A stretch of 61,818 nt of DNA, counting the filler, from Bipalium vagum (taxonomy: Eukaryota), in assembly GCA_037834085.1 (NCBI GenBank). It is 3 parts of 3 records of this genome, joined end to end, with 100 filler letters (N's around TTAATTAATTAA, not from the genome) between each part and the next. Parts side by side here need not be neighbours in the genome. Positions count along the whole stretch, not along the records: positions 43,687 to 61,818 come from JBBMKC010039671.1; 2 more parts are not named here. The stretch is one strand, 5' to 3'. Below are positions 27,969 through 60,466 of this stretch, piece by piece. Within the stretch, counting starts at the first letter, position 1. Each line of letters opens with the position of its first letter. The notes under the pieces were generated by a model that was not told where the DNA came from, made no database searches, and was given only the letters and a program-made list of their open reading frames with translations. A program made the position numbers and the translations under genes.

Positions 27969-28040
27969 TTATTATTATTATTATTATTATTACTATTTAT
28001 ATTATTTTTTTGTTTTACTTATTAAAAAGCAAATTCCTAC

Positions 28041-30743
28041 TTTTGATGTTTCAGATTTGGTTTCTTGTATATTATAATTTGTTGGATTGAAATGCACATT
28101 AGGTGTACCATACCACAAATTATTGACAGGGGAGTACATAACATCTGACCATCTATTATCATTTCCATAGATTTTTTCCACATTTTGTCCCATTCCAATT
28201 TCAGAATGATTATATTCTCCTCTTTCATTTTGCAACTTAACGGACCTTCGTTTCACAAACATAAGAAATATAAATAAACCCAACAGAACAACTCCTCCCA
28301 TAGTTACCATTGCAATTACAATCACAATTCGAAACTGATCATCAGTAAAGTTCATGCCCGCTCGGAAAGCCGATCTGGAAGAAACGAAGAGTCTTATTTT
28401 TATTTCAGTAGATAAATTTGGTTCACCATTATCATTGGCAACCAGTTTAATTACATAATTTCCTTCTCCAATTCTGTGACGGGTTCTTATTTCTCCGCTT
28501 TGTGAATCAATATAAACAAAATCATTACCTTCGGTTACATGATATGTAATATTTGCATTTTGTAAAGAATCTAAATCAATTGACTGCGCAATGATTATTC
28601 TTTGGTCTGGTGCTAGAACACTTGATGTATTTATATTAGAAGAATCGGGAGTAGGATGAACCCATTTAGGAGAGTTGTCATTCATGTCCAGAACCCTTAA
28701 AGTGATGGCCTCAATTGTAGTGAGTTTCGGCTTACCTTGATCACAGATCATGATGAAAAGCGTATATAGTTCTATATATTCTCTATCCAGAGACTTGTGT
28801 AAGGAAATATTGCCCGTATTTTCATCAATAGAAAAAATATTCGTAAAATTGTTACTGATATCACCAGACTGGACAAAAGAGAGAGATTTACCTATTATTT
28901 TTTGAATGTAAAATTTAACAGTTCCGTTTTCACCTAAATCCTCATCTTTTGCTTGTAACTGTGTAAGTAATTTTGGAAGCTTGCTTTCATTTTCCATCAC
29001 TTCCAATCTTGGAGGATTGACAATAGAAGGCGCATTATCGTTTATGTCCGTTATTGTAATAATGACTGTAGCCGAAGCAGTTTTTATTCTAGGTTCACCT
29101 GGATCAACTGCAAGAACAATAATTTCAATTTTATCCTTTTGTTCTCTATCTAAGCCTTTTGCGGTACGTAAATACCCCAGTACAGGATCTATTATAAAGT
29201 ATGCTTCTGATTTTGGAGCGATCTCATATATTAGTTGAGCCGTTATATCCTCATCTGTAGCTTGCAGTTGAAGCAGAATTACACCGTTTGTGGTATTCTC
29301 GGATATTTCAACAAAGTACTGTGACTTTTTGAATTTTGGTGAATATTCATTTATGTCTTGGATTTTAACTGTGATCTCTTCTTCGGTTGTTAATTTTGGG
29401 ATCCCTCTGTCAGAACAGAACATTCTTACTTGGAAATGGCTTTCTACTTCTCTATCGAACACTCTTTTCGGTTGTAATGTATATATATCACGACCTTTAA
29501 CAGTTTGAGAGTTTGATAGTTTAAAGCTGTCGGCTCCTACGGTCAAATTACAGTCAACTTCAGCGTTAATACCAATGTCACCATCCGACACCCAAATGAT
29601 TGCAAAATGCGACATGGATGTTTGATTTTCTTTCACATTGAATTCCTTTTTATTGGGATCCAGTGAATTAATATTGATTATTGGTCTTTGGTTATTTACA
29701 TCTTTTAAGTGAACATAGACAATTGTGTATCCTACTTTTGGCACATTCCCACCATCCGAAGCTTCAATGTTCAATGAAAAATCTTGAGCGATATTCTTGC
29801 AATTGAGTATTCTTTGTAACTTAATTTCTCCGGTATAAGTACTGATATAAAAGTATGATAATACAGATGGGTCTTGAACCTGACCAAAACGGTATCGTAC
29901 CTGGCCAAACAGTCCCGAATCCAAATCGACCGCTGTTACGTTGGCAACCACTTCACCAACCATGGTATTTTCCATTATTGTTACTACATATTCCTTTTGC
30001 AAAAAGACAGGATAATTGTCATTTATATCTAAAACGGAAATGGCCAAAGTTTGATTACCACATAACGGTGGAGATCCACAGTCGCACGCTATTAATGTGG
30101 TTTTGTAATTTATTTGAGTTTCATAATCAAGAGCACTTGTGACATTAAGGTAAAGAAGACTTGCAAATGTTATATTAAAAGTATCGTTAAATCCATGCAT
30201 GAAATATGTACAGACATTGTTTGGTTCAACGTCAGGGTCGGATGCTGTTCTCAATGATATTCGATAGCCTATCTGAACGGCTTCACTGATCTGCACTTGG
30301 TAATAAGATTCTGCAAATTTCGGTTGGTGATCATTAACATCTTGAATGGTTATGATAACGTTAATCCAATGATCGGGCTGTACGCAAACGGTCAGTTCAA
30401 TTTGACAGCGATCCAAAGCTGTGAAACTGGTGGGACATATTTGTTCTCTGTCAATTCTTTGAGCAATAAACAATTTTCCAGTACTTTCTTCCAGAGAAAA
30501 GTATTTCAACAATTTCCCATCATCATAAAGCTTAAATGTTGATTGGGGTTGGATCTTAATCATATTGGTATCGAGATTTAAGTTGCCAATAAAATTTCCA
30601 ATTTCCGTTTCCTCTTTGACAGCGTAAAGAATATTTCTTATGACATCATTGCCAAGCAAACGTTTACATTGACTTTGCATTAAGAAAACAATTATTATCA
30701 AAACTATCCAACAGTTCCAAGAAACGGTCTTTTTCAGATTCAT
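28041..30743 (-). CDS. Protocadherin (7 EC repeats, delta-type-like), large first coding exon
   Basis: Signal peptide, seven cadherin repeats (DxNDxxP, LDYE/LDRE and AxDxG motifs; EC1 DREQIC...C), TM IVIVIAMVTMGGVVLLGLFIFLMFV, then KRR. Probable phase-0 donor SETSK|gtagga at 28041; unspliced, the ORF runs to a stop at 28002. Confidence 0.93.
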
Positions 30744-33700
30744 TTTTCCGATTTAAATTAATAATTTTTAACACCTTTGTGTAGCATAATAGGAGAAATT
30801 GAACAATAAAATTTACAATCATTTCCCATATATAATCTCGATGGGAGCCAATGGAATCGTTCCTCTTTCTTTATTGAATCAAGGATTTGACAGAAACTTT
30901 TTCATTGAAATTGGATAAGAATCATTTCTTTCTGCAATGATATTTTGGTTCTTCGGATTTCCAGGTCCCTATAATGGTCTAGATACCAGTGGAGAAAAGA
31001 TTCCGTCTTCTGTGGTTCTGTCAATAAAAATTGAGGCATTCATTCAATAGTAAAATGAGAGATTTGCGTCTCTGATTGATCCGTCTTCTTGAAGAGTGTG
31101 ATAGAAACGATGAAGATCCAAAATTAATTTCTTTTTTACTTCATTTTTTTATTTTATTTTAAAAAATCTCTAAATATAAAATAATATTTATAAATATAAT
31201 GTTTTGTCAATCTAAAATGTGACTGACATTAAAAGAAAAGAAAGATAAGAAAAAGTATTTTTGTAACATCAGATTTCTTGGAGAAATTAAACTTATAAAT
31301 TTTTTATTATTGTAAAATTTTAAATAATAAAGTAAAACTGGTTCAAGGAGATTATTTTCCAGAAAATATAAATAAGAAAAAAGAGAGAAAGAATTATAGA
31401 AGAAAAAGTGTTTAATGAAGAAATCAAATAGTCTCTTACCTGAAAAGATGGGCTTATTAAATTGTATAGATGATTTTTAAGAAATCTGACGCATTTAGAT
31501 TAACCCCATTATATTTTTCCAATAGCAATAGAACCTACAATTTTTGAAATATTTGATTTTAAGTCAAATTTATTCCAATACTTTTCTCTGGTAATATGGT
31601 GTCAAGTTTTGCTTCTAAGTTATAGAGTAAATGTAATTTTCAATTTTTAAAAAACTCTGGTGTAAAAGAATGACACGTGACTGACAGGCCCACTGATTGG
31701 AAAATTTTCTTAAATCATATTTTTATTGATAATTAATTTGTTTGATGAATTGGACAAAAATTGCAATGCGTTTTCTGCAAAATAGAAAAATCGAAGATGA
31801 TCAATGGCACAGTCTTTTAGTCTTCTGGATCTATGTTGTATAGCTGCCAAAATAATGTGAAAAGAATTATTTCCCGATTAAAATACCGCCAAAAGTAATT
31901 TAAGTCTGAGGAAAAATTAGGCATTTGTCTAATATCTGCGTTGCGCAATTTATGAAAATATTACAAATAGATCTGCTAAAATGGATCTTGATAACCAGTT
32001 TGTTGAAAATAATGCGAAAGCGGTGGCAGCATTGTCCATCATTAAAAGATTGACCCTCTAAACAAATTTTCGACACTTGTGGAAAAAAAAACCTGCAGTG
32101 AACATTCGGAGAAAGTTGTAATAAGCGAAAATTGAAAAGATAAAGTTTTACCTAAATTTACTTTTCTTTATAAAGATATTTATATTTTATGATTAGCACA
32201 ATAAATGACCCAAACAATATACATAAATGTGACTGAGTCAAAAACTTTTTATTTTACCTAACATATTTATATATTCTTTTACTTGAGAATTTAACGACTT
32301 AAAGTGTCAAGGTAGGTGTAAGGGAAGCATGGAAAATGTGATTTATGTCTTTATTAATATTTATATTTTTGCAATGATATCTATACTGAAATAGAATTTT
32401 TTCTTTGTATGTATAGGACCTATAGAGAAGCTCTAAACTATGTGCATCACAAAGTTATCTTTTCTCGGTATATAAGCCGATATATGAATTATAAGAGAAA
32501 TAAGTAATTAGAAAATATAGTTTGTGTGACCTATTTTATCTCCCGGTATGTAAGCCGATTTAGGAATAATACGAGAAATAAGTTACCTTATACATATTTA
32601 TATGAAAATATAAATTATAGGAATTATATTTATTGTACAGCTACACACTTGACTTTATACATATTTTGTTGTAATTAAATTCGATGAACATTTTAAAAAT
32701 TTGAACAGAAACATTACCCATATCAATTAAGAATCATAATTATTATGGCTACTATTATTGTTAGTGCAGTCGTTATTGTTGATGCTATCGTCTGTTGTTG
32801 TTATTACTATTACTTTTATATTTTATATCATGCATAAACCCTTATTACTAAACATTAACTCTTATTATCTTTATATTTCTGATTGTATTGTGTATAAATC
32901 TTTCTTCTCTTTCCGTTATTCTTTCTCTCTTCTCCGATGCCTTCTCTCATGTAATAAACATTCAAGACATACCAGACGATCGGAAACTGCACATCAAATA
33001 AATACAATGAAAATCAATAACTGCACCTAAATTATATTAATAAGTACATATTTCGATCAAATTAGTACTTGTTTTCATGAGAACTTTACATCTTCAAACA
33101 GCATTTGGTTTCGAGAAGAAATCGTCTTCAGAATATATCTACCTCTCAATCCATTTTTGACATCTTACCTTTTTTTGTTGAAAGGTCCCATGCTGCGTTG
33201 ATTAAGAGATTACAATGACTTGGTAATATGTCTTGCGGATTTAGAGATTGAGGTATGATTACCTAATTTTTGGATATTTTAAAAGAATGAAAATTATACT
33301 ATGGATCAGCTAATCAGGTTGATTAAAGACAAATTTGATTTTCAAATTTCGAGAACACATGTTATTCTTAAGATTTAAAATATTTAAATAAAATTCGTTG
33401 TTAACAAAAAAAGTGATAATTTCCTTTTCAAATATATTGTAAAGACTTTTTATTGCATTATATCTGACCATTAACCATCTTTCAGCTAGCAATCCATATT
33501 CCTCGAATAAAACTCCTATTTTGAAGTGATAACTGTCGTAATGCACTTTCAATCCTCTCCTCTACCTTACGTGATAAGTTACTCAAAATGTGCTACAGAG
33601 ACCAGAAACGAGTGAAAATAAGTAATTTCTGCAGAATGATATTTTTTGCTAGCTAGTACTGGGCATGTCTCTATGACTTTTAAACAAGACAATTAAGCAA

Positions 33701-36699: not shown

Positions 36700-37862
36700 T
36701 ATGCAGAAATTACAATAGAATTACATAAAATGCATATACGCAAATGCATGGTTTTTTGTTTAATCAGATCAAAACATCAGCCGAAGCAACTGGAATTATT
36801 TGCAATACATATGGTGATGGAGCAGTAGTCGTTTCGACCTTTCAAAATCCGTGATTTTGATTTGGATGATAAAGAACGCCATATGCGACCATAAGAGATG
36901 AGTTAGGATGACTTGTGTGAGATAAATTGAAAATTAGTCTGAGGATGTAGCTCAGCGGTCAGAGCAGTCCATGCGCATGTGAAGGTCCCGGGTTAGAATT
37001 TTCAACTAACAACTTGGAAGCACTTTTTGAAAGAGAACTCAATCGATTGTAGAATTGGCAGGAAGGTTACATGTTAATCAGAGCATCATAATCAGTTTGG
37101 AAAAATTCATAAAGGAAAATGAGTTCATCATGACTTATCCGAAGACATAACCAGCCGACTCACCAATTGTCTTTCGCTTCTCAACAAACAAAGGTCTTTC
37201 TTGCATCAAATTGTGATCAGAGACGAAAAGTTAATATATATAATATTATTCAAATTCCAATCGCAAAGGATCATGCTTAAATCCTAGAGAACCAAGCACA
37301 TCACAGCCGAAACGAAATATTCATAGTCAGAAAGCTCTTCTTTGTATCTGGTGGGACATGCACGGAGTTCTTTATTATGAACTGTTAAAACTATCAGAAA
37401 CTGTTACTGCGGGATTTTACAGACGCCAATTGAAGTAGTTTGAAGAAAAATTAATTGAAAAACAGTCATATTAAACGACCAAACAGAACAATGTAATTAT
37501 TCTGCAGCACAATACCAGATTCGTGTTGAATTAAGAACCCGTGAAATATTGATGGAATTAAAATGGAAAGTTCTATTACATTCGGCTTATTCTCCAGATG
37601 TCGCCCCGTCAGATTTTCACCTGTTTCGTTCCATGCAGCACAGTGTTGGATACACGATTCTGGAATATTGAAGAGGTACGAAAATTCATCGACAACTTCA
37701 TTCAATCCAAGAACAAAGACTTTTTTAATCGGGGTATCCATCTTTACCTGAAAGATGGGGAAAATGCAAATAATGACGGAAAATATTTTGAATGAAAATA
37801 CTGTGTATATTAATAAAAATTATTTGTCTTAAGACTATTTGAATTTATGCATACCCATAATA
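36700..37862 (+). mobile_element. Inactivated mariner (DD34D) element hosting a 96-bp insertion
   Basis: MHIRKCM, NTYGDGAV, IVIRDEK, KALLCIWWDMHGVLYYELLK, AYSPDVAPSDFHLFRSMQH and NDGKYFE* motifs; TIR-like end at about 37841-37862. Confidence 0.9.
36916..37011 (+). mobile_element. 96-bp TG...CA insertion with tRNA-derived core (candidate TRIM solo LTR)
   Basis: Flanked by ACTTG duplication (36911-15 and 37012-16); ends TGTGAG...CTAACA. A-box TAGCTCAGCGG (36948-58), D-stem GCTC/GAGC, degenerate B-box GGTTAGAATT (36991-37000). Removing it restores the host mariner reading DDLEAL. Confidence 0.7.
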
Positions 37863-43586: not shown

Positions 43587-43686
43587 NNNNNNNNNNNNNN
43601 NNNNNNNNNNNNNNNNNNNNNNNNNNNNNNTTAATTAATTAANNNNNNNNNNNNNNNNNNNNNNNNNNNNNNNNNNNNNNNNNNNN
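43587..43686. other. Artificial scaffold linker N44-TTAATTAATTAA-N44
   Basis: Same 100-bp structure as 27869-27968. Confidence 0.95.
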
Positions 43687-44082
43687 TATTTGGAATAAGC
43701 TTTTTAACTTTATGTTTTTAAGTACTTTAAACTCTGTGCACTTTTTTATGCATCACCCGTTATATATATATATATTATTATATTATATATATTTGTATAT
43801 TACATAAAAGCTATTAAAGTTTTACAAAATTCCCGTTTTTTATTTATAGGATACTATTACGTTTTATAAATAGGTATTATTTTCATATAAAAAATGTAGA
43901 AATTATGAGAATTATATGTCAAATATATTAATTAATGCACACTGCAGCTAAAATAAGCAATGGTTCGTAGAAATGAAAAGAAACAGTGAGATGCACACAA
44001 CACTTTAACTTTAATTTAAGGTGAACAAAAAAATTACATAAAAATATTAATAGTTAGATGTGAGCTAAAATACCTTATTTAC

Positions 44083-45947
44083 CTGATTCATACTCAATGT
44101 CTGTGATCTTATTTAAGTCAAAATCCGAATTGTGTTCATGGAAATCTATATAGAAAAGAGTCAGAATTGATTTTTTGTGAATTTTTAGCAGCAGCAAATT
44201 TTAAAATGTGAGGTTAAAACTAAAAATTATCTAGCTTTTGAGAAGCTTTAATAGAACCTGTAGAACTCCAACGGAAAATGTTTAAAGAAGTATTATCCAT
44301 TGTCACGTCTGTAATTTCAGCGTTATCCATTATAACGTTATCAGCTTCAGAATCTGTTTTATGATTTATTGTTAAATATTTTTTAATTAAAAAAAATTCA
44401 AGTACTTATAATGAAATATTTAAAAAATAATATTAATATTAATATAATATTTACATTAGCAAGCTTATTTGAAATTTATATATACCTGAAGGAATTTCAA
44501 TATCGGTAATTATATTTATATCTTTGGAATATTGACTACTGACATCTGATAAAAATATTTTATTTTATATTTATATTTTAAAATAATAGCGCAGCAGCAA
44601 ATGATTACCAAATTTAGTTTAATATTAATTATAATAAATTGAATTACTAAAGATTGATAAAACCTAAATTCAAACGTTGAAAACTAAAAAAGACTAGCAT
44701 TTTTAACACAATGATTTTAGAAATAGTGAAAAAAGAATTGAAATTTACCAAAAATTTTCAATGATGTTTCTACAATGTTAATAATCTAATAACAATCATA
44801 TTATTTTTATTGACAAACAAATAAATAATTTTACTTTAATTATTGAATTATAATAAAACAATGATTTTTCAAAAAATATTTTAGATGTCAACTATTCAAT
44901 ATATCTGATTTAAACAAAGTTTCAGTGGTTATATTTTTTGCTATTTTTGAATTGAAAAGACTCGTGAGAAATTTAATGTATTTTTAAATTGGTTTCATAT
45001 TCCTATAAAATGTTAATGCGTAGCAGCAAAAAACTATCATCTCAATTGTGTAATTCAAGAAATTATCATGTTAACATTAGCTAAGTAAATATTAACTAGC
45101 TAAAACAAAATTGTTATTCTTACAAGGTAAAGAGACGTTATTTATAGAAGAAATATCCGCCGTAGCTTCTGAAATATCAGCGTGATCCACTGCATTGTCA
45201 GTGTCAGCATCAATGCTATCATCAACTTAATTGTGAAAAAATCGATTTTCAAATATTAAAAGATAAAATAAGGCCAAAATGGTCTTGAAAGAAACTTATT
45301 TTACCTGTAGGAAAATCGTTATCAGTGATTATAGTACAATCGATATCGAAATTAGAATTTCGGTTTTTGAACTCTGTAAATTAGATATCGATTATAAAAC
45401 TTAAAGTTCAAGAAATTCTTAGCATTAGCCACATTAAGTTTTAAAATCAGTTAAGAGAAAAAACAAATAGACCTTTATCTTTAAAATGAAGAATATTGAT
45501 GGACGGAATATCTGTCGATATTTCAGATATATCATTAGTATTATTATCAGGATCACGTTCTTCATCTTGATATTTAAAAATTTTTTTTAAATGCAAAATC
45601 TTTAGCTTATTGAAAAGGTTTATTTATTTATATACCTGATTTGTATTCAATATCAATAATTATGTTTGAATCAAGATCCATGCTCTGCTGATCACGTTTT
45701 GTGATACCTAATTTTGAAAAATAATGTTATTTAGACAACTTTCAAATATTAGCAGGAGCAGCATCAGTAACAGAAATATTGATTGCAGCAGTCGCATTAA
45801 TAGACTTATACACAAAAACAGTTTTACGAAATGCATTATTTGAGCGAGTGAATTTTAAACTTTAAAAAGTGATGAACCTGGTAATTTAAATGAACGGTGT
45901 TTTACAGGAGATCTATCTGCGGAAAATCCAGTAATCTCCGAAATATC

Positions 45948-45982
<35 letters not shown>

Positions 45983-46377
45983 CATAGTTTAAAATCTTAT
46001 TACTGATTTAAAATAATTTAAATAATAATAATAAAATCAATGAAAAACAAATAAAAGTCAATGTACCTCTTGAATCAATGGACTGAGAAGACATTGTAGA
46101 ATGTTTATCTGAAAATAATGACCCATTGATTAAAAATAATTTTTGTTAAGTCTATAACTTGGGACACCTTTCATATATTCCAGCTCTTTCCAAATGTCAT
46201 CATTTGAAGTGGAAAGTCGATAATCTTGGTCAGTTGGAATGGTCAGTTGACTTTTTTCTGTTGATTGAAAAGTAATTTTCTCATTAAAAATTTTTATTAA
46301 TTTACTTTTTCTATCTATCGATTCCGTAGCATATCCAATATCAATATCAGGTCTAGTAATCACTTTTTGAGAAATTT
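44083..46377 (-). CDS. ANK: Ankyrin linker region: array of 11 symmetric phase-1 mini-exons
   Basis: Predicted exons 46306-46377 (72 nt), 46168-46257 (90; alternative donor gives 99), 46067-46108 (42), 45878-45946 (69), 45636-45707 (72), 45473-45565 (93), 45305-45373 (69), 45124-45225 (102), 44486-44545 (60), 44258-44353 (96), 44083-44145 (63). All are AG/GT-bounded, multiples of 3, stop-free in the frame set by the SDSEDEG exon, and acidic S/T/D/I-rich. Confidence 0.7.
44187..45795 (-). promoter_or_regulatory. Intronic UGC/YGCY clusters (candidate MBNL-type splicing elements)
   Basis: Plus-strand agcagcagca 44187-96, agcgcagcagca 44588-99, gcgtagcagca 45018-28, agcattagc 45421-29, agcaggagcagca 45751-63 and tgcagcagtcgca 45784-96, in otherwise extremely AT-rich introns. 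Confidence 0.5.
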
Positions 46378-46493
46378 CTATCGAAAAAATAAGAAAAATA
46401 TAAAGGCACAACATTTATCATTGGACAACATAAGAAATGAAGAGAAGAAAAGAAAAAAATGATCGGATGGTTTTCTGTTCAGAATTAATTTAC

Positions 46494-49400
46494 CTCCTTC
46501 GTCTTCACTATCAGACACAGCATGTTCTCCCATATTTTCCGGTTTTTCCAAAATAATTATCTCTTCAGTTTCTTCTTCTTCAATTTCCCAACTTATAACT
46601 TCCGTAGTGACCTTTCGTAAAACTTCAAAAATATTCAAATAATGCTGTTTTCGAGCAATGTGAGCAGCAGTCCATCCTTGCTATAAAAACCATAAATATT
46701 TCACATTTAACAATAAAAGTCCATTATAGCTTATTGCAAACAAAACTCATACATTATTCTTAATATTGGGATTGGCACTATTCTCAAGAAGCAGATTGAC
46801 CAATTGCAAGTGACCTTGTTGAGCAGCCAAATGTAAAGGAGTAAATCCGAGTTGAGTTTTCCTATTTATTTCCTCTTGAGTCATTAGACTAATCAAATAT
46901 TTTGCCATGTTCACTTGTCCAAAATGTGCAGCCGTGTGTAAAGGAGTATACTCGGCAGTAGTTGTTGGTAATATATCGGCTTTTTCTGCTACCAAAATTT
47001 TAGCAACACCAACACGATCTTCTTGAGCAGCCAGGTGCATGGAAGTCAATCCGTTCTGAAGTAAATATCGAATTTTATTTTTTAAAATTATTTTACCATA
47101 TTTTTTGACCATTATAAAATCCTTTAGCATAAAAATTTTAATGAAAATATATATCTATACAGGGTGTTCCATTTGAATCCGAACTCCACAAAACATTATT
47201 TGTATAGAACCTGTATTTTAAAGGTAAACTAATGTTTTCAATTGTTCATGATCATTTTCCTATGCTATATGTTATCGTTTAGAAAAATTGTAAATTGATG
47301 TGATCAAGTAATATTGATTTTATTAATAATTTTGCACCTAAACTTTTCGAAGTATTTCAACACTACATTATGTAAATTAAAATATTTACTAATCTAACAT
47401 GAAATATTATAGAAAGAAATACAATCTAAAATTTCATTAAAAATTACATTTTTGTAAATAAATTTAGACTCTTATCTGATATTCCATAACATTTAATTCT
47501 TTTTACAGATAATTGATCTGTAATTAATTAATCCAATTAAAATCGAAACCTCAATATAAAGAAAAGACCTCTTATCATCTATTGGTCTCCGAATTCAGAA
47601 TCTTAATTAAGAAAAATATTATTAAATACACTGTACAATTTATAATAATTTTGACATTTTCATAAATAAAGTGCAATAAAATTCATTTTATTTCGAATAT
47701 GTTAAGCTGTAACAATATCGGACTACGAATAGTATATTTTAAAATACTAATTTTTATCAGTGTCAATATTTTCAAACTATTATATTCGGTTTGTTTTTTA
47801 TACAATTATTAATAATTAATTATTAATTATTATAATTAAAATTCATTTCAGAATATCAGAAGAATTATATAACATTTATTTATAAAAAAAAACGGAAAAA
47901 TTGAAAATGATATATAGAGAAAATGACTACATAGGAATATTTTTTTTCTTTATTAGCAGAAAAAATATTGATTAATATTTTAATATTAAAAATAAAAGAA
48001 TCAATATTTAAAAACTGATCGTTTTAAAGTTTCAAGCCATGTGTGTTATTTGAGTTGTGATGTGAGTTAGTTTGACTTTCTGTTAGTTCCGAGATTATTG
48101 ACATTACTAATCATAAACAGATATCGATCACATAGAATCATCGTAAAATTAAACAAAAAATAATGATTATCAAACCAATTTAATCGCTTCCTATAATTTG
48201 GTTGTAATATATAAAAGCTTTAAAAATCCATGATCATTTTATGTTCATACAGATGAAAAAATATAATTGATAACTAACTTCAATTAAAATACACGACCAA
48301 AAGCAAAAATGAAAATTTAAAATTATAAATATATATTACTTTAGCTTTGTGATTGACATTCGCTTTATTTTGCAATAATAACGAAACCATATCTGAGTGG
48401 CCTTCTTGGCTCGCCAGTTGTAACGGAGAGAAACCGTTTCGTGATTCAGCATTACTGTCAGCATCGGCATCCAAGAGCATTGCTGCCAAATTTTGATTAT
48501 TCTTTTTGGCAGCGATGTGCAACGGGGTATAACCGTTTTTGGCCTAAATATTTCATACAATTCAATAATCCTGCCATAATAATAACATTATGTAAACTAA
48601 AAAATTGATTTAATTTTGAATAAGAAACCTATCGTTTCATAAACCTGATAAAAGAACGTTTTAATACAACAAAATAATAAAAAAAAAATTTCTTTTAAAT
48701 GATATACAAAATCAAATTGAAATTATTTTCACATTCCTTAATTTCACATTTCATGTACTCCAATCCTTTACCATGGAAAAATTAAGTAAACAGGGAATTT
48801 CCAAAGAATAATAATGATCAAAATATTGATTTGTCTGATAACACAAACGAAAGTGATTCAAAGCCGACGTATACATTGATATGCACAATAAATCTAAGAC
48901 AACAAATATCATTTATTTAATCCATCCACTGTCAACGACTATCATATTATTTTGATATGGTTTTAATATTTTCATTCTCATATCTGAAGCACTTTTGAAG
49001 TTTTCAATATTGAAGACAACGTGAGTTGATAATTGTTATAAATATTATGAAACTATATAACAATAATAAACAGAGTTCTAATAACATTATGGAATTTAAA
49101 AGTTAGTCACTATTTTAAAGAATATCGATTTATTGTAATTAGCACAAATAAAATATCAAATTCATGAATAAATAAATATAAATAATATTTTATTTATATT
49201 CATAAATTTTCATTTACTAAAAACTTTTCAATTTATTGACACTACTGTTACAAATTTATTATTTTATTATTTATTATATATTAGTTACACAGTAAAAAAA
49301 CCATAAAACGTGATAAATGAATATTTTCACTTTAATCAGGTGAAAAGATAACAATCTCTATCAAAATTTCTTCTTAAACTTATTGAATAGAATTAATCTC

Positions 49401-52400
49401 TGATTTGATTGGTAATATCGAAGCAAAGTCAATATTTTTAAAAAACTTAAGAAACTTTATTTTATAAAAAATTTCAAAATCGAAATTCTAAATAATTAAG
49501 GTTTCTCTCGCTTAAATTTAGTAAACCCCGAGTTTATTTATAATTTTGTCATAGTAACGGTGTTTTTTGGTTAACAATAAATCATAAAAATGAAATATGC
49601 ACTTAAATTTCTTTATTATAATTCAAGACCGATATTCATAAATAATAAAAAACATTTTTAATAACTATAATAATAATCGTTGAAATTTTCATTAAAAATT
49701 TTGTTGATTATGTTTTAAAAATTATTTCTACTTATTTAAAGTGGTTTAGTTACCTTGCATTTTGGATCTGCTTTATTTTCCAAAAGTAATTTGGCTACCT
49801 TTTCATGATTATAATGAGTTGCCACATGTAAAGGAGTCAGTCCATTTTTCCCAGTAGCATTCGGATTAGCATTATTTTTTAATAGTGACTTAGCTGCACC
49901 AACCTTGTCATACTTTGCAGCAATGTGCAAAGGCGTAAATCCTCTCTAAAAACAAAAAAAATAATAAATACTTTCAAATGCCGTAACAATATTTACCTTT
50001 GTTTCTGCTTCTATTTTGGCTCCATTTTCTAACAATAAGCTGATTGCTTCATTTCGACCTTCTTTGGCAGCTACATGCAATGCCGTATAATTATCTCGTG
50101 TTGCAACATTCGGGTCAGCCCCAACTTGTAAGAACAATGTAATCAGTTCCAAATTGCCTATTTTTGTAGCAACATGTAATGGCGTTTGGTTTTCCTGAAA
50201 TACCATTGAGGACTTATACTTGCATGTTTTGAAAGTTTATGTAATGAATAAAATTGTTTTAGTTTAATATTTCAACCTTTTTTGATAATTTAAGATTTCA
50301 CAGGATTTAGAAAATGTAAAAATTATCTACCTTTTTTCTCAAAAACATGAAATTATATAAATTAATTTATGAAAACTCTAGTTTTGAAAATGAAGTATTT
50401 TCATTTTTTTAATGAGAAAATTGTTTCTCTCAACAATTAGCAGGAAATTTAATATTAAAAATATCCAATTACATTACATTATTGGTTTAAAAATAATGAG
50501 CTTTTTGTTTTTTATGTTAAAAAATTTATTTCATTTAAAAACTGATTACTAAATTCTTTCTTATTAAATAAATATTTATTCTATATTAATAGATATGTTA
50601 AAACAAATTAATTTCAAATTTTTTTGAATACTGTTTTTAATAATTCAAAGTGTTTTTTTCAAAATCTTAGGATATGAATATATAAGATTTATGATAATTC
50701 AATAATAGTATTTATGAAAAGAAGAAAATGATCAAAATTAGTATTAAAACCATCACCTAACAGGTATTTTTTGACTAATTTTCACTAATATAGAAATGTA
50801 ATAATGTATTTCTATTTTATGTCTAATATATAAAAATTATATTAAAACTGAAATTTTATTATTGAAATCTGAATTTCATAAATTTAATGTACTAAAAAAT
50901 TTGTTAAATAAAGATTATATATTATTATATATTATAAAGATTATATCGAAACCAAAGTTAATATGGCCTTCCATTAATTAAATTATATTATCATGTTATG
51001 TGAAATAATTAAAAATATTACATACTAATTACAGATAGTTCATAACAATTTAATATTTGTTCTAAAAAGGTAAATATTTTGTGAATTTGTTGCAAATAAA
51101 GAAAAATTATTAAAATAAAATGTGAAAATTGGTAATATTCAGTAACAAGAAAAATTCAAATGCAACAAGCAGAACCAAACCAGAAAATCAATAGTCATAT
51201 ATCTGTTGCACGTATCTCTCAATTAAATAAATGTCAAATTGGTTTATTGCATCACTTGAATTTCAAAAACATGTTTTTATGGAATTTATTAATCAAAATA
51301 TAATAATAAACAATATTATTTTTAGAGTCTCCGATGTGTTTGGTTGAACTTTTACATTCTACAGAATAGATGAGAAACTTAAAGATTGTTTTAGATTAGT
51401 AAATAACACAAAAAGGATTATTAAGATATATGTGATAAATCAGACTAAACACTCGGCATATCTGTAATTATATAATCGCGACACCCAATGAGGTAATATC
51501 TTTATCCCAAAATCATTTTACGACACATAATTATTATGTAAGCAGAAAATAGTTAAAATAAAATATGGATTAAATGTATGTGATCATATTTTAATGTTAT
51601 ATTTATTTGTCATTTTAAATTAACAATTATTATTGCTCATTAGCATTATAATAAATAGATACACAATTACACTCGCATATATTTTGAGAAAATAATAATT
51701 TGTATTTCAAATAAAAATGAAAATTTATTTATAAATAAATTTAATTGATCAATAATTTATGTAAATGATAAAAACAAGCTTCATTTAATATCTTCTAGAA
51801 ATTAAGGCCCTGATTTTTAATATATTTATATATAATAAAATAATAGTTTTCTGAATTTTTAAATTTTCTCTAATTTCATGAAATCGTTTTTTAGGTAGAC
51901 AGTTTTATACATAAATTGATTAAACATATAAATCAATACAATTCAAAAATATAACTATTGATTATAATTATATTTGACTTTAACAAAATTTTTAAAATAT
52001 AATAGAAAATACAATGAAGATAACAAGTCTTTTATCAAAATATTGTTTTAATAATTATTATTTTATATAGTATATTCAAAAATATTTTAACGAACATTAG
52101 TGAAAATACACAAGTTCATCATATATATATTTACAAGAATTCCATGAGAAATTTTAATTTACCAATATATTAATGAGATTTTAACATCCAAAGAAGTAAC
52201 AAAATTATTTTAACTAAAATAAATCCTGTTTCTGTTTATAAGAGGACTTAAAAATTACACAAAATGTTCTTATCCTCAATTTATAAGAAAAGTAACATGA
52301 ATTTTATTTTTTTAACATAAAGTAATCAAGTTAAAAAGCTGGACCAATTTGATATATTTCATTTATATTTTCGCAAATTTTCTTTTATCCGATGATGAAA

Positions 52401-55400
52401 ATATAAGTAATATGTAATCAAAATTACTCGTGCTTTAGCGTTTGGTAGAGCTCCACTTTTCAATAAAAGTTTCACAGTTTCTGTTTGATTATTTCTCGTT
52501 GCTAAATGTAAAGCAGTTTCACCTCTCATTGTTCCTTGCTCAATATTTGCTCCTTTTTGCAAAAGCATGTTTACCGCTTCTTTAGATCCAATAAAAGCCG
52601 ATACGTGCAATGGCGTCAAGCCGGTCTGAAATGAAAAATCCATTATATTATACTAATTAAGAACAATAAATCAGACAATTTTCAAATATTTTTTAGAAGT
52701 TTTATTTGAAATAAAATAAAAATTCATTTCGAAATATTAAATTTCATCACTTTTTCATAAATCAACAGTATAATTTGTAAATGCATTAATGAAAAAACGA
52801 TGACATTTTCCCAGTTGAATTAGAAACACAATCATTTATTTTATAAAAATATGCAATTTTTCAAAACTAAATATTTATCAATAATGGATTTTAGTTGACA
52901 CATGAGTGTAAATCGAATCAACAAATAATTATTTAATTAATGTAAAGTAGACGAATATTTAACAAATAATATATAAAATAAACATTTATTGTAATGAAAG
53001 AAACATTATTAAATTAATATTATTATATACAATACTTCATTATAATATTGATGAATATTATTTAGACAAAAAAACTAAAATTAAGTTTTCTGTACCAATA
53101 ATTAAAAATACCCACATTGAATAATTATCTTAACAGAAGCTAAGCTCTCATCAAAACTAAACTTTTAGATTTAATAAATAAAAAATATACGACATTATAG
53201 AAACTTTAAAAATAAAATTTAGAAAAAAATAAAAATTAAAAAAAATTGCAAAATTGAATATCTGTACTTCTATTACTTGAATATACAATGTATCAATAAC
53301 AATATTTTTATTATTACACAGTTTGTATTATTAATATTAAAATTCTGAAAAAAATATTTAAACACTGAATTATTATTAAATTCACGTATCAAAAGTAACA
53401 ATATTATATTATCTATTATTAATAACAGGAAATCAATGAGATTGTTATAATTAAAACACTTCAACAATATTTAAATATTAAAAAAATATATGTACATAAA
53501 TATACAATAAATACTGAATATTGGTTCATTATGATTCAATGACTTAAAGTTAAATGAATTGATTATAATTCTTGTCAACAGACTTAATAAGAAAATATAA
53601 CAAGAAACTAAAATCAAAATTAATTTTAGAAAATTATAAAATGAAATCGAAAGTCAAATTTTCAGTTTTCTTAGAAATAACTTTCTAATGAGAAGGCCAT
53701 CCTATAAAAAAGCATTCTTATAATAAATTAAAACAGATCCAAATAAAATGACATTTCATAAATATAATTTTATTTTGTATCCTGTGGCTACAAAGACTAG
53801 AAACAATGTCAAAGATAGTGAAGAGTCCATTATAACTACTGTATTGGTATGTATGTGCTTACATCAGGAAACAGTTATCCGAGATGTCTTCTATTAAAAC
53901 AATAGAACCCATAGAATAAAGAAATGCAAAGTAATAGCATCAGCTATCTGAAATCTGATATTTTTTGTATTAAAAGAGTTTTTATTAATTATTTTACATT
54001 TTATTATCCGAAAATTTTTATTAGGACATTTGTCCATAAAACAAGTAAAATATTTTAAATAATCTACAAATTTCTTACTTAACTAAATATTAAATAAAAG
54101 TTAGGAAAATCCATAATAAATTAACTATTTTGAATGAAAAAAAAACTAAATTTCATTAGACTTTATATCCATAAACTGAATTTTCTAATTTTTGTTTTAC
54201 TCATATTTTCAATATTAATATATTTCTGGTGGTCTGAGAGTAGAAATAACCAAAACCATTTATTATTTAAGATTCCAATTGTAATAGTAATAAGTTTTAA
54301 AATTTATACAAATTCTTGATTCAAGAAATGCATTCTTTTTACTTTATTAGTTGAACAAGGATTTTTAAAAATTTTTTTCGACACATTAATATAAAAGAAA
54401 ATACATAATTTTGGCAATTAAGTATATTTAGAATGATCTCAATTTATATGTAAAAATTAATTACAAACTATCAATGTTTATTCTTAAATGATGAAAAATC
54501 GAAAATTTTTGCATAAAATAAAAAAGAATAAACTCCATTGAATTTTAATATATTCACTGTCAAGGTATTCCAAAAATCATTGAAGAGTATCAAAATCTAA
54601 ATTCTTAATGTTACAAAGGCTATTTGAAATCCTCTACATTAAAAGGTAAAAATAAACAGAAATTCCAAAAATTATTTTTGGTGACAGGAAATATAAAGTA
54701 ATTAGATGTCAAATCAGGAATATTAAAAGAATATGTCAAATAGTTGATTGATTTTTCATGAGTTACTTTTTCATGAGAATTCTATTAAACTATTCTTTTA
54801 AAATATATGAATTACAACATGACCAAATTTTGCTACTAAAAAAAACAATTTTTTATAATAATTTCACATTAATCATTTCACAGATCCAAATAATTAAATA
54901 CTTTATCAATATTGATAAGGTCATAGATATTTTTTATGACCTTTTTGAGTACTGAGGTTACAGAAATCGTATTTTTTATTAAATCTTACGCTATGAAGTA
55001 TTCACAAATTTTACTTAAACGGCCATGTATAATGGAATTCATTAAGGCTCGGGAACACACAATTTAGTGTGAATTTCATTGTATGTAGTTCGACGATCTC
55101 CTAAAATATTTCTGCGAATGATAACATTTTCACCAATAAAAAATCGATGATAAAAAGATATCACATTTGAGCTCATCAATTAATCAATAAATTGTAGTTT
55201 TCAATGGTGCTTTATCACAACCAATTTTTAACAATTCAGACATTGTTTTTGTCTTGACCAAGTTTGAAATATAATTAGTCAAAATTTTTTCTTTGTTATA
55301 TTTATTTTTTGTGCTTTCTGTCTTTCTTAAATTGAATAGATTATTTTAAAAAACATGTATATGAAAAATTGTCTTTGTATGGCCATCATATATTTACTAG

Positions 55401-58400
55401 ATAAACGATTTTTGTGATAGATCATGTTTTCATAACCATTTCCTTAAGAAATTTTGAGCGATACGATTTTTTTGTTTGAAATATAGTATGAAAATCAATT
55501 TATTAATATTATTTTCCAAGAACTAATAATAATAATAACTAATTTATATTGCCATAATATTCAACTCATTAATCACATTAAAATAAATAAATTAGATTAC
55601 CTCTGTCGTTGCTTCAATGGAAGCGCCATATTTTAACAATAATTCAACAATTTTAATTTTGTATTTCTTGCAAGCAATATGCAGTGGAGTGAAACCATTC
55701 TAAATAATTAAAATCATGATCAAAAGATTTTTTTTGACACTAAAATATAATAAAAACACAATAGATACCAGAGCTCTAGCATTTGGATCACACCGCCTAT
55801 CCAATAAAATTCTGGCAACCTTCTCATTTCCATAATGGGCTGTTACATGCAATGGTGTAAGAAAATCCTGTTTAAATGAAAATTATTTTTTCATTAATAA
55901 TACATTGAATAATTAATCTGGTACCGTTGTCGTTTCGTTGATATTGGCTCGCTTTAGGAGTAATATACGGGCAGTATCCTCATAATCCCCTTGAGCAGCC
56001 ATGTGCAATGATGTCAATCCATTCTATAAAAAAAATCAATATATATGAAAATCAAAGATTTCTAAAAAATGATTGATAAATCCAAAAAAGAAATCTTGTA
56101 AAGTTTTCGAATAAATGTCTCCCAATAGTGATTACTTTTTATTTATTTAGGACAACACATAGTGGACATTTTAATTATCAAAATAAGAATATCATTATTA
56201 CTAATCCACCTCGTTCAATTATTTATTATTTTTATATTAGATTGGTTCCAAAAAAAAGTATTTTTAATTAGTTTAAAATTTAAGGTCAAAAACTACAATT
56301 TCTTTCCACGAACATCGTTGTCAATTATGCTACCATTGGTCATTCATTACAAAATCCAATATGTTTATACTCAATGTTTAAAAAATGACTAAAAATATAC
56401 TCATTTTCATATATATAATCAATATTTCTAAATTCACCCTGGTTTTAGCCATGACATCCGCTCCATTATCAATTAGTTTTTCACATAGCTGAGCATGACC
56501 AGATCTGGCAGAACAATGAAGAGGAGTCAATCCATCACGTGTTCGACATGATACCAATGCTCCGGATTCAACAAGCAACTGAGCCATACCTGATCGTCCC
56601 CATTTTGCTGCAACATGTAATGGAGTAATGTTGTTCTGAAAAGAATAAAGTTTTTATTGTTATAAACGTTGAAAAGTAGCACTGACCTTTGCCTGAAAAT
56701 TTACATCTGCTTTATGTTCAATCAATAATTGAGCAGATCTCTCATTTCCATAATGAGCCGCAATATGGAGCGGTGTAAAACCACTCTGAATAAATTGATT
56801 TTTATATTTAGAAACTTCACAAAAATCTTACTGATGACTGTTGGTTAACATCTACTTCAGTACTGTTCAAAAGAAGGTTTACTGCGTTAACGTCGTTTTT
56901 CTTTACTGCTATATGTAATGCTGGAAGTCGCTGTTTACTATGATTATCGTTTTCTAATAATAAGGCCACAACCCGTTGATGTCCTTGTTGTAGAGCAACA
57001 GCCAATGGCGTAAATCCATCCTGATTTAAAATTTAGTAAATATACAAATGAAAGAATATTTCTTATAATATAATAAAGTATTGTAATTTAATATCGATTT
57101 TTTAGTGAGAAAGAGCATTTATTTTTTATCTAAAGATAATTACTAATAATATTATTTTTCTAATAGTATATAATTAATTAAATACGAAATATCAATCTTA
57201 TACATTAAAGGAGTTATGTTTTAAAAATTAAATAATTATTTTTAATTCTTTAAAAATCTAGTCGATTATTTAATACGTAAATGGACTTTTGTCACTTTTA
57301 ATGATCACAAAATCATCTTTTTAGTAATATGTTTAAGTGTCTCACTTTGAATTATATTTAAAATTACTAAAAAAAAATCATGTAGGTAAATTGATATATG
57401 ATGATTAATATTAGTATTTATTTTTATAAAGGTGATTAAAAATGTTCAATAAAAATGACATCAAACAACCAGCAAATTTAATTATATGATAAAAATAAAG
57501 GTTGAAGACAATAAAATCAATAATTCCACATCTAACTAATACACAACTTCAAAGCGACACCAAATAAAAAATTGTTCATAAAATTATTGATTTTAATTGA
57601 GTGCAAGTCTATTAGAAAAATCATAACGTAAGTATAAGCACAATAAAATTCAATACTGAACACAGTACAAAAAATAATATTTTGAAAATATAATTGAATA
57701 ATTAAAAATATACGTATCTGAAAACTAGACAAGCATTAACTATAAAAATTAATATTAGATTATTTCTTGTTTAACGAAAAGTTAACGACTTAGATGAATG
57801 AGTTTCAAGTTATTCAATATTAAACCGATGTGAATTTTATTTAACAATAATTAATAATAACTTCTCTTAAAGAATTTTAAATCGATTTTTTTTACTGTTC
57901 TCAAATCTATGTTCAAAATATTGAATTTTAATTTGTTATAAATTTCGTTTCTTGCCAGTGATTTACATTGATTTAACAAATTTTATAAGAATTTATGATT
58001 GTGTATGTACGGAGAAACGAAAACTATTTCATTATATATATATATATATATCACGGAGAGCGTGACATAGACTTGCTTTTTCTTTTTAACTGATGTATTT
58101 TTAATCAAATAACTTTATACAAATCTTTTAAGATAGAATAAACTGAATCAAAATACAAACGGAAAATTGATAACATATTTGAATAAAGTTCTAGCTAATA
58201 AATCTTTATGTTTAAAATATTATAAGGAAAAATTTTTGACCAATATACTCAAAATTTAAACATCTGATTAACAAGGATAACTGGATTTCAGAAAAAATTC
58301 TAATATTTGCCTAGATTGTTGACATTTTCACTTGATATAGATTTTCTAAAATTCATTTCTTGAAAGTACCACATACTTTTAATAATTATTGTCTTTCTTT

Positions 58401-60466
58401 GTATCAAGTTAATAATGACTGTTTCAAAAACATTAAAAGCGATTTTCCAAATTAACGATAAATTATTCTCTTTTTATCTATTTCCAAACTTATCAGACCA
58501 TAAAATCTTTTAAATAAATTTTCCAGTAACCATTTATCATCTATTAATAATATTGTGACCAATAAAAAATAATGTTGGATAACATTGGTATTTTAGACAT
58601 GTATAATTATGTTGATAAAAACTTGACTTATTTGTAGTTCGTCAACTTCTATCAAACCGTGGTAAAACTTAAAAATTTCACAAATATACTTGAAATGCTA
58701 ACTAGATAATTTATATTTCAACTGTAATTCAATATTTTAAAAAAGATATATTTCAAGTAGCAAATCTTGCTAAATTATTGAAAAAGAAATAAAATTGATC
58801 AATAGTAACAAAGTATAGTTGCACAGGTGCAATAAAAAAGCTACAAAATTAATCAATTGAAAAGAGATTTTCAAAGGCCACAATAAAATTATGATAAAGA
58901 CAACCTAAATACAGTTTCCTTTCCAATACTAATTCTAGACCTAAGATTAAAAAAAAGAAAACAAGATATTTTTATAATAACCAATCAAAATGTTCTCCAG
59001 TTATATGACAAAATATCATTTTTTATATTATTCTATATATTTACTCTATTAATGTTGACAAAAACTCTTGAGCACGTATGTCTTTATGCGATAAAATTAC
59101 AAATATTAATCCTCCAAAGATATTTGTATTACAAATTATTTCGAAATAAAAATCTAAATCCATAGAAAAATTATATAAAAACTATATTGATTATTGTTTG
59201 CCTAATAAATTTATTTAAATTACCTCGGTTGTTATAGTTGGATCAGCTCCATTATTGATTAAGAACGTTACAACATCAAAATGATTTTCTTGAGCTGCCA
59301 TATAGAGAGGTGTAAATCCATTCTATAAAACACGATAAAGTGAAATTTTAAAAAAATTATCCAGGTTTCAGAAAATCAATAAAAAATCTTTTGTAAACCA
59401 GTTAATTACAAAAATCAATTTAAAAATCTAAAACAATACTAACCGTAGATTGAAGATTAACATTTGCATTTTTTTCCACAAGAAGCTTAACGATTTCAAA
59501 TTTTCCAGCCAAACTGGCAATGTGCAATGCTGAATTTCCTTTCTTTGTTGTTGCATCAATGCGTGGTTCACGTTTAATTAGTTCCTTAACAACATCAACA
59601 TGGCCCTCTTTAGCTGCTAAATGCAAGGCACTGAGACCAATCTAAAAATAATAAAAATCGATAATGTTGATAAATCAATGTTGAAATGTTTCTTTTTATA
59701 GAAAATTATTATTTATTACAAGATAATATTTTTGATTTCAGCAGTTCTTTAAAAATTATTGACAGACACCATAAAAGCTTTATTTATTAAAGAGGATTTG
59801 AAATGATATGTAAATAACAAATTGAAAATATTAATTTACACTTGATTTTCCATTATTTTGATTAATAAAAACATGCACATTGTCTGTTAGATTTATATAC
59901 CAGGAAAGCAAATGGTAAATGTAGACGTATGGAAATATTTTCACTTGGAACAGACTAGGAACATTGTGCAATAGAAGACATGCATTTATAAGGACGAAGC
60001 GCAATGAATTACTCAGAAGAGAAAAATATTGATATTTTCAGTTAGTCTCTGGGAAATATTGAACAAAATTCACTAAATTAAAGTTATGAAATACTGGAAA
60101 CATTAATTCTAATAAAACATCATTCTGAAAGATTTAAACGAAATTATCAACAGAAAAATTGTTTTTAGTTTTCTGTAAGAGTTCAAGAACACAAAAATGT
60201 TACAATCTTAACAATTAAACATTTACTATAAAAAACAAAAATAATTCTTAACGTATTGGAAGGTAAAATATATGATAGTAGATTAATGTCAAAATGTTAT
60301 AAATTAATAATTGTTAATAACAACCATAGATAAAAAATAGATTAAGGAAAATAATTTAGCTTACATCATTGCACGTATTTATATCGGTCCCGGTTTCCAG
60401 AAAGTCAATTATTTTTGCTAAATTTCCTGCTCTAGCAGCTCGTAGAAAGCTATGATTCGATTCGCT
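46494..60466 (-). CDS. ANK: Ankyrin (ANK2/unc-44-like) membrane-binding domain: 24 ANK repeats, 15 exons; 5' exon and ZU5/death domain not found
   Basis: Predicted exons 60365-60466, 59444-59641, 59224-59322, 56832-57020, 56687-56785, 56438-56635, 55925-56023, 55769-55867, 55601-55699, 52428-52625, 49997-50194, 49754-49945, 48340-48543, 46753-47055 and 46494-46680, mostly 99/198-nt phase-0 units. Diagnostic canonical-ankyrin peptides [46 protein letters not shown] and PENM...SDSEDEG. Confidence 0.95.
54990..55150 (-). mobile_element. Short mariner remnant in ankyrin intron
   Basis: [25 protein letters not shown] resembles the second HTH of mariner transposase. Confidence 0.35.

What the first reader, a model, noticed from the sequence alone, without database searches (positions are those of the whole stretch)
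44187..45795. UGC/YGCY clusters at a fixed 40-46 nt upstream of every A-type mini-exon
Seen in sequence: transcript-sense UGCUGCUGC-like clusters lie about 40 nt (exon 44083-44145), 41 nt (44486-44545), 46 nt (45305-45373, weak) and 42 nt (45636-45707) upstream of the acceptors, in introns otherwise almost devoid of G/C. No comparable clusters were noticed in the ANK-repeat introns. Established: YGCY is the Muscleblind/MBNL motif, upstream binding generally represses inclusion, and MBNL versus CELF control of stem-cell splicing has been reported in planarians. Inference: the regulatory element was duplicated with the exon pair and kept by selection, giving a coordinated splicing switch.
Basis: partly seen in the sequence, partly recalled or inferred. 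Interest (0 to 1): 0.7.

Follow-up and report, generated by a model that had tools for sequence, protein, structure and literature searches.

The report
Splicing element copied with ankyrin mini-exons
In a flatworm ankyrin gene, a short UGC-repeat signal sits 40-46 bases before each of four duplicated mini-exons (and before a fifth, dead copy), and it likely is a binding site for a Muscleblind-type splicing regulator that would set how long the protein's linker is, a known kind of control in a newly seen setting.

Summary
On the minus strand, a flatworm ankyrin has 11 symmetric phase-1 mini-exons after its ANK repeats, including tandem A/B copies. A (UGC)n-GCUA element ends 42, 46, 41 and 40 nt before A1-A4. 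A1, A3 and A4 carry 3 YGCY each; A2 carries one. None of 11,103 21-nt windows in ANK-repeat introns has two YGCY. Flanking intron sequence between the copies is at chance identity, so retention by selection is likely. New here: a fifth, dead A copy (44905-44972, both splice sites lost) keeps a shortened element. This shows co-duplication but weakens the selection argument. MBNL is the best single reader (about 0.4; analogue: the UGC cluster of Tpm1 exon 3). It is not shown: no RNA, ortholog DNA or genome was available, and the planarian map text reports MBNL motifs in exons and downstream introns, not upstream. Rivals: a distal branch point (UGCUAA in 3 of 4), eMIC/SRRM, a relic, or pairing to one site behind A4 (post-hoc p about 0.02).

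The parts
45750..45763 (-). UGC element before A1 (UGCUGCUCCUGCUA), 42 nt from the exon
45785..45802 (-). second UGC cluster in the L4-A1 intron; candidate 5' arm of a long-range duplex
45420..45430 (-). weak element before A2 (GGCUAAUGCUA), one YGCY, 46 nt from the exon
45018..45028 (-). shortened element (UGCUGCUACGC) before the dead A copy X
44587..44599 (-). UGC element before A3 (UGCUGCUGCGCUA), 41 nt from the exon
44186..44196 (-). UGC element before A4 (UGCUGCUGCUA), 40 nt from the exon
45636..45707 (-). predicted exon A1, 72 nt, phase 1-1
45473..45565 (-). predicted exon B1, 93 nt
45305..45373 (-). predicted exon A2, 69 nt
45124..45225 (-). predicted exon B2, 102 nt
44905..44972 (-). 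X: dead A-type copy, 68 nt, no AG before it and no GT after it
   Evidence: PWM of A-exon ends ranks it 5th of 61,009 positions, score 19.1 vs next 7.9
44486..44545 (-). predicted exon A3, 60 nt
44258..44353 (-). predicted exon B3, 96 nt
44083..44145 (-). predicted exon A4, 63 nt
45878..45946 (-). predicted exon L4, 69 nt, a diverged B-type copy
   Evidence: B-exon profile hit E 0.011
46067..46377 (-). predicted linker exons L1 (46377-46306), L2 (46257-46168, NDDIW..LEYM motif shared with fluke ankyrins) and L3 (46108-46067)
43931..43950 (-). G/C island in the intron after A4, complementary to the upstream clusters (candidate docking site, weak)
43991..44003 (-). UGU-rich stretch (GUGUUGUGUGCAU) about 80 nt after A4, candidate CELF/BRULI site; GTGTTGTG occurs once in the window
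   Evidence: motif assignment from PMC4978528 passage (UGU) and recall
46494..60466 (-). host gene: ANK-repeat exons K1-K15 of a canonical ankyrin; ZU5/UPA exons are not in the window

Best explanation
The UGC cluster is an intronic element copied together with each A-type ankyrin mini-exon, and it likely is a binding site for a Muscleblind (MBNL)-family protein that would repress that exon by covering its predicted distal branch point. Shown: the element, its fixed spacing to the acceptor, its absence from ANK-repeat introns, five copies (one dead), and chance-level identity of the flanking intron. Also inferred is the outcome: MBNL-rich (differentiated) cells would skip A exons or A/B blocks, and MBNL-poor (stem) cells would include them. 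That would change the length of an acidic, low-complexity linker (up to 555 nt, about 185 aa) between the membrane-binding ANK repeats and the ZU5 domain.
For: Element statistics. Spacing to the acceptor is 40-48 nt in all five copies, whereas the distance from the upstream donor ranges 53-318 nt, so it is tied to the 3' splice site. Ungapped identity among the 6 live pairs: 0.34/0.41/0.38/0.32 in four intron segments vs 0.34/0.37/0.38/0.32 expected from composition; element 0.53 vs 0.26, with 4 of 17 columns fixed by the anchor. Exons look coding: 11 of 11 are 3n and open in the phase-1 frame vs 44 of 803 random AG..GT segments (boundaries chosen by eye); codon-position identity of A-exon ends is 0.80/0.69/0.44. 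MBNL1 prefers multiple YGCY, UGCU above all; a 3-YGCY site 35-79 nt upstream of MBNL1 exon 7 binds at 11 nM; upstream sites go with repression (PMC2853123 passages). UGC clusters flanking Tpm1 exon 3 bind MBNL, which represses it (PMC3643581 passages). Planarian MBNL-1 has conserved specificity, top 6-mer GCUUGC (PMC4978528 passage); that 6-mer occurs once in the linker introns, just after A3. S. mediterranea ankyrin-like genes have blocks of small 3n exons that are more included in stem cells (supplement rows). Mouse Ank3 E35a is repressed by Mbnl2, with sites in its upstream intron (PMC13046794 passages).
Against: No transcript, binding or ortholog evidence. The planarian RNA map as described in text places MBNL motifs downstream (enhanced exons) or in the exon (repressed exons), not upstream (the figure was not seen). 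A2 has only one YGCY. The dead copy X keeps two YGCY although it has no exon to regulate. UGC is also the SRRM/eMIC motif, and UGCUAA is a good branch point, so the motif does not identify the protein. The stem-cell-regulated exons of S. mediterranea comp1432 lie after the death domain, not in this linker; the position of the three-exon block on Contig10809 is not given. The conservation test was ungapped and on AT-rich sequence, and short triplet runs can renew themselves by slippage.
Confidence: 0.42

Rival explanations
1. The conserved core is a strong distal branch point (UGCUAA) read by SF1/U2, and the extra UGC triplets are an accessory or slippage extension; the long branch-to-AG distance makes the exon weak or regulatable without MBNL.
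For: With a simple U2-match score (weights my own, consensus recalled), TGCTAAT at -42 in A1 ties for the highest score among 26 introns, TGCTAAG at -46 is best in A2, and TGCTAAA at -40 is second in A4. The fixed spacing to the AG is what a branch point would show. No AG lies between element and acceptor in A3 and A4 (exclusion zones 101 and 74 nt).
Against: A3 has GCUAU, no CURAY match. A2 has an AG at about -27 between element and acceptor. A4 has a better proximal candidate (TTCTGAC, -16). Long AG-free zones are general in this gene (18-66 nt in ANK introns). A branch point does not explain three UGC repeats.
Confidence: 0.18
2. The elements are selector arms that pair competitively with one docking site in the intron after A4 (43931-43950), looping out everything from that A exon to A4 and giving a nested ladder of linker lengths.
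For: That site is the best shared partner of the four live elements within 46680-43690: -14.1, -11.5, -15.5, -15.7 kcal/mol; dead X is weakest at -8.9. It pairs with the second cluster before A1 at -19.9, the best of 66 linker intron pairs. 5 of 1000 pair shuffles, 11 of 500 family-wise shuffles and 6 of 390 real control chunks reach that. Duplication of one stem arm with an exon is a proposed origin of such systems (PMC6071210 passages).
Against: Found post hoc. 10 unrelated sites elsewhere in the window reach the summed-energy cut-off used. The helix is not in the MFE fold of the 2,091-nt stretch. Duplexes are short, G/C islands in AT-rich DNA pair preferentially anyway, and no compensatory changes can be checked. 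Local folds have z from -1.8 to +1.3.
Confidence: 0.12
3. The UGC cluster is an SRRM/eMIC-type enhancer that promotes neuronal inclusion of short exons.
For: UGC between branch point and AG is the SRRM3/4 signature, with strong but distant branch points (bioRxiv 2024.09.17.613571 Introduction and passages; fly data bioRxiv 2021.02.24.432780 passages). Alternative branch-point candidates lie just 5' of the cluster in A1 (-57) and A3 (-60).
Against: A exons are 60-72 nt; microexons are 3-27 nt and the fly eMIC median is 31 nt. The UGCs start 45-56 nt from the AG, not close to it. No UCUC-rich tract is evident by eye. Whether flatworms have an eMIC domain could not be found.
Confidence: 0.1
4. 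The element is a functionless relic: a short (UGC)n run present in the ancestral unit and carried along by duplication.
For: The dead copy X keeps both a shortened element and 0.60 identity at the exon end (live pairs 0.64), so decay is not complete. A2's copy has largely eroded.
Against: Other intron positions have decayed to chance among live copies while the element persists in register. TGCTGC is absent from 11.4 kb of ANK introns.
Confidence: 0.1
5. MBNL binds the cluster but acts as a downstream enhancer of the preceding B exon, as in the planarian RNA map.
For: MBNL motifs are enriched downstream of enhanced exons in planarians. Four of five elements follow a B-type exon, and the element after live B2 persists although the A copy behind it is dead.
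Against: Distance from the upstream donor varies 53-318 nt while distance to the acceptor is 40-48 nt. A3's strong element has no live B exon in front of it.
Confidence: 0.08

Closest known systems
UGC clusters (U/URE and D/Dugc elements) flanking rat Tpm1 exon 3, bound by MBNL1 (PMC3643581, passages)
   Same: Cluster of UGC triplets in the intron upstream of a short exon, near the 3' splice-site region; repression by MBNL proposed here, shown there.
   Different: There, clusters lie on both sides with PTB tracts and the exon is one of a mutually exclusive pair. Here one cluster precedes each of several tandem symmetric exons, overlaps a branch-point-like UGCUAA, and has no matching downstream cluster.
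YGCY sites upstream of MBNL-repressed exons, e.g. MBNL1 exon 7 site at 35-79 nt (PMC2853123, passages)
   Same: Three YGCY, U-rich context, similar distance.
   Different: Binding measured there; here sequence only, in a flatworm.
MBNL/CELF stem-cell splicing programme of Schmidtea mediterranea, including ankyrin exon blocks (PMC4978528, passages and supplement files 2-4 in part)
   Same: Flatworm ankyrin-like genes with co-regulated blocks of small 3n exons; conserved MBNL specificity.
   Different: The reported motif positions are exonic or downstream; the mapped regulated exons of comp1432 lie after the death domain; no A/B repeat is reported in what was seen.
Mouse Ank3 microexon E35a (PMC13046794, passages)
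   Same: Ankyrin exon controlled through its upstream intron by Mbnl2 (repressing) and nSR100 (activating).
   Different: A single microexon elsewhere in the gene, not a duplicated array in the ANK-ZU5 linker.
Docking-site/selector systems with a downstream docking site (14-3-3zeta, Mhc, Dscam 4/9/17; PMC6071210, passages)
   Same: Tandem duplicated exons each with a similar intronic element, and one complementary site after the last copy.
   Different: Complementarity here is short, marginal and unvalidated; the geometry would give nested truncation rather than one-of-n choice.

Membership tests
MBNL-repressed cassette exon | Two or more YGCY (preferably UGCU) clustered in pyrimidine-rich context | tested here: met
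   3 YGCY in A1, A3, A4; 2 in X; only 1 in A2, so met in 3 of 4 live copies
MBNL-repressed cassette exon | Cluster in the upstream intron near the 3' splice site | tested here: met
   ends 40-46 nt before the exon; fits the mammalian rule, not stated for planarians
MBNL-repressed cassette exon | Exon is alternatively spliced | not testable with these tools
   no RNA holder listed
MBNL-repressed cassette exon | MBNL binding and PSI change on MBNL loss | not testable with these tools
   needs CLIP, RNAi or a minigene
MBNL-repressed cassette exon | Element conserved in orthologous introns | tested here: inconclusive
   no orthologous locus found; conserved among paralogous copies over chance-level flanks
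SRRM3/4 / eMIC-dependent microexon | Exon of 3-27 nt | tested here: not met
   60-72 nt vs definition
SRRM3/4 / eMIC-dependent microexon | UGC close to the AG, between branch point and AG | tested here: inconclusive
   UGC starts at -45 to -56; branch point unmapped
SRRM3/4 / eMIC-dependent microexon | eMIC-bearing Srrm gene in the organism | not testable with these tools
   no genome held; literature searches gave no flatworm statement
Distal branch point | CURAY-type match with no AG before the acceptor | tested here: inconclusive
   CUAA in A1, A2, A4, absent in A3; AG-free to the acceptor in A3 and A4 only
Docking-site/selector cluster | One site complementary to an element at every variable exon | tested here: inconclusive
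   candidate 43931-43950; family-wise 11 of 500 shuffles; 10 control sites reach the cut-off
Docking-site/selector cluster | Conservation with compensatory changes | not testable with these tools
   no orthologous DNA
Canonical ankyrin (ANK-ZU5-UPA-death) | ANK-repeat array orthologous to animal ankyrins, followed by the acidic SDxE linker start | tested here: met
   groups with fluke and tapeworm ankyrins at 99/95
Canonical ankyrin (ANK-ZU5-UPA-death) | ZU5-UPA exons downstream | tested here: inconclusive
   not in the window; the contig ends at a gap about 400 nt after A4

The most novel reading that the evidence does not exclude
A telescoping linker: tandem duplication of a [B exon - UGC arm - A exon] unit produced five selector arms that compete for one docking site behind the last exon. 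Each pairing loops out a nested block and yields a graded series of ankyrin linker lengths, and MBNL binding to the same UGC arms would switch the pairing by cell type. This would be docking-site splicing that sets repeat number rather than a one-of-n choice, in a flatworm.
Probability: 0.12. Interest if true: 0.72.

Novelty: new member of a known kind. Interest (0 to 1): 0.36.

Why it matters
If the MBNL reading is right, this is a compact natural experiment in how a splicing-regulatory site spreads by exon duplication: strong (A1, A3, A4), eroded (A2) and orphaned (X) copies lie side by side within 1.7 kb, giving graded predictions for inclusion levels. The affected region matters in vertebrate ankyrins, where the ANK-ZU5 linker autoinhibits membrane binding and its inhibitory segments are reported as always retained (PMC3663501 abstract and one section; PMC5779224 passages). 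A spliceable, expanded linker would be a different solution. The regulatory principle itself is known, so this does not change the field unless the pairing model holds.

Tried and rejected
No whole genome is held for this window, so no genome-wide motif map and no search for mbnl, bruli or srrm genes. No RNA holder listed. Laying the one listed run's contigs on 43900-45930 gave only short partial matches, no spanning record and nothing usable. Two metagenome scans found no related locus: 0 of 330 and 0 of 125 candidate stretches confirmed. ZU5/UPA exons: none in the window by tblastn or profile. A/B peptide profiles found nothing among the 269 proteins fetched (best independent E 1.2), so the repeat seems lineage-specific within that limited set. 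My first reading of X as an 87-nt exon from 45002 was dropped: it has in-frame stops, and the A-copy reading fits far better; a poison-exon use of that acceptor is not excluded. A conserved local hairpin around the element was rejected: z -1.1, -1.8, 0.5, 0.8, 1.3 on 60 shuffles each. A coding explanation was rejected: no ORF of 55 aa or more on the plus strand covers the elements, and the one minus-strand ORF across A3's element is out of frame with the exon. A docking site upstream of the array was not found. The original eMIC paper is not held. Searches for prior description returned no paper on this flatworm ankyrin array or element. The library lacks most subscription journals; bioRxiv supplements and the figures of PMC4978528 could not be seen and may bear on motif positions.

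Full report
Setting. The region lies in a minus-strand canonical ankyrin gene: 15 ANK-part exons from 60466 to 46494, with exons K2-K14 in phase 0 and K15 ending in phase 1 after SDSEDEG. Its best database matches are full-length ankyrins. In a 26-row tree the joined ANK exons group with Schistosoma, Anoplocephala and three unnamed ankyrins (99/95), inside a 13-row clade (100/100) holding all named flatworm rows; no named free-living flatworm was in the set. The organism is therefore a flatworm; earlier scan notes call it planarian or flatworm-like, which I tested only to phylum level. ZU5/UPA exons are not in the window: the contig ends at a gap about 400 nt after the last mini-exon, and no genome is held.

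Exon array. After K15 come 11 predicted exons of 42-102 nt, all multiples of three and open in the phase-1 frame; 44 of 803 random AG..GT segments of that size pass the same test, though my boundaries were picked by eye. L2 carries NDDIW..LEYM, shared with fluke ankyrins. The S. mediterranea ankyrin comp1432 has introns at 803.1, 827.1 and 857.0, matching L1 and roughly L2 in length; its sequence was cut in the supplement and not compared. A1-A4 are homologous, as are B1-B3 and, weakly, L4. A/B exons total 555 nt and encode a peptide that is 23% D/E and 20% S/T. No RNA was available, so splicing is predicted.

Observation. The element ends 42, 46, 41 and 40 nt before A1-A4. A1, A3 and A4 have three YGCY in -60..-40, A2 one. 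The total of 10 was never reached in 20,000 dinucleotide shuffles (mean 0.85), and 0 of 11,103 ANK-intron windows hold two YGCY. Against 27 other acceptors (14 ANK, 7 linker, 6 from a neighbouring gene, picked by eye) the looser criterion gives 4 of 4 vs 1 of 27. Because the copies are paralogues these are not independent events. The claim of G/C-free introns holds only for the stretch between element and AG; overall the linker introns are richer in GCU than ANK introns.

A dead fifth copy. A fifth element at 45018-45028 at first looked out of register. A matrix built from the four A-exon ends ranks 44905 fifth of 61,009 minus-strand positions (19.1; next 7.9; leave-one-out scores of live exons 22.4-32.5). 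The copy, 44972-44905, sits between B2 and A3 where the alternation predicts an A, lacks the acceptor AG and donor GT, and is 68 nt. Its element lies 123 nt from the exon end, against 113-127 in live copies. This shows that the element travelled with the duplicated unit. It also shows that a shortened element can persist without a usable exon.

Selection. Ungapped identity among live copies is at composition level in four intron segments and raised in the element (0.53 vs 0.26, partly forced by the anchor) and in exon ends (0.64; codon positions 0.80/0.69/0.44). Retention by selection is the likely reading, but orthologous introns, the proper test, could not be found.

What reads it. Spacing to the acceptor is 40-48 nt in five copies and to the upstream donor 53-318 nt, tying the element to the 3' splice site. 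MBNL fits the sequence best: multiple UGCU in U-rich context, a measured 11 nM site with three YGCY at 35-79 nt upstream of an exon, and upstream-equals-repression in mammals (PMC2853123 passages; PMC13044900 passages). The nearest described element is the UGC cluster upstream of Tpm1 exon 3 (PMC3643581 passages). Planarian MBNL-1 has conserved specificity, but the text places enriched motifs in repressed exons and downstream of enhanced ones (PMC4978528 passages). Its supplement lists ankyrin-like exon blocks of 48-411 nt more included in stem cells, with the mapped ones after the death domain. A GCUUGC after A3 and a UGU-rich run after A4 are compatible with MBNL/CELF control but are single occurrences. 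Vertebrate precedents for ankyrin exons under these factors exist (Ank3 E35a; Ank2 exon 21 and CELF, PMC3577904 passages).

Rivals. The element ends in UGCUAA in A1, A2 and A4, among the best branch-point matches in 26 introns, but A3 lacks it. The eMIC/SRRM model fails on exon length and probably on distance; C. elegans lacks eMIC (bioRxiv 2026.09.14.751627 passages), and I found no statement for flatworms. A G/C island after A4 is the best shared pairing partner of the elements and forms a -19.9 kcal/mol duplex with the second cluster before A1. 11 of 500 family-wise shuffles and 6 of 390 real chunks do as well, 10 unrelated sites reach the summed-energy cut-off, and the helix is absent from the global MFE. 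It is a lead, not a result.

Verdict. A real, non-random intronic element co-duplicated with ankyrin linker mini-exons; most likely an MBNL-type site at or over a distal branch point (0.42), of a known kind. Interest 0.36; 0.72 if the docking-site ladder (probability about 0.12) proves true.

Noticed in passing
window 27869-27968 and 43587-43686: Gaps have the form N44 - 12-nt stop-rich spacer - N44, apparently an artificial contig joiner, so order and distance across them are uncertain.
   Followed up: no
window 28005-30752 (-): Single long exon of a protocadherin (about 890 aa); an unnamed protein is 79% identical (P0122), named matches 33% or less.
   Followed up: partly
window 23300-26780 (-): Multi-exon gene resembling the spliceosomal protein SART1/Snu66 (name recalled, not searched), with markedly higher GC than the ankyrin exons.
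   Followed up: no
window 46258-46305 (-): The 48-nt intron between L1 and L2 is in frame and stop-free, so retention would keep the reading frame (ORF 46133-46414).
   Followed up: no
window 45947-45990 (-): The acceptor of L4 is preceded by a pure (TA)n run instead of a pyrimidine tract.
   Followed up: no
window 43950-43835 (-): Tandem AG/CAG acceptors followed by an early stop and an AATAAA about 100 nt later could be an alternative last exon giving a ZU5-less ankyrin; it overlaps the candidate docking site.
   Followed up: no
window 45002 (-): A good acceptor lies 23-26 nt after the orphaned element of X; its use would bring an in-frame stop (possible poison exon).
   Followed up: partly
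proteins P0255 and P0256: Two unnamed near-identical ankyrin fragments, resembling the tapeworm row P0051, differ by presence of the linker segment with the IW..MEYL motif, suggesting alternative splicing of this linker in other flatworms.
   Followed up: no
window 3690-5220, 10700-10890, 21770-22630, 27418-27920, 37244-37670: Several Tc1/mariner-like transposase fragments (recognised from recall in the six-frame listing; not searched).
   Followed up: no
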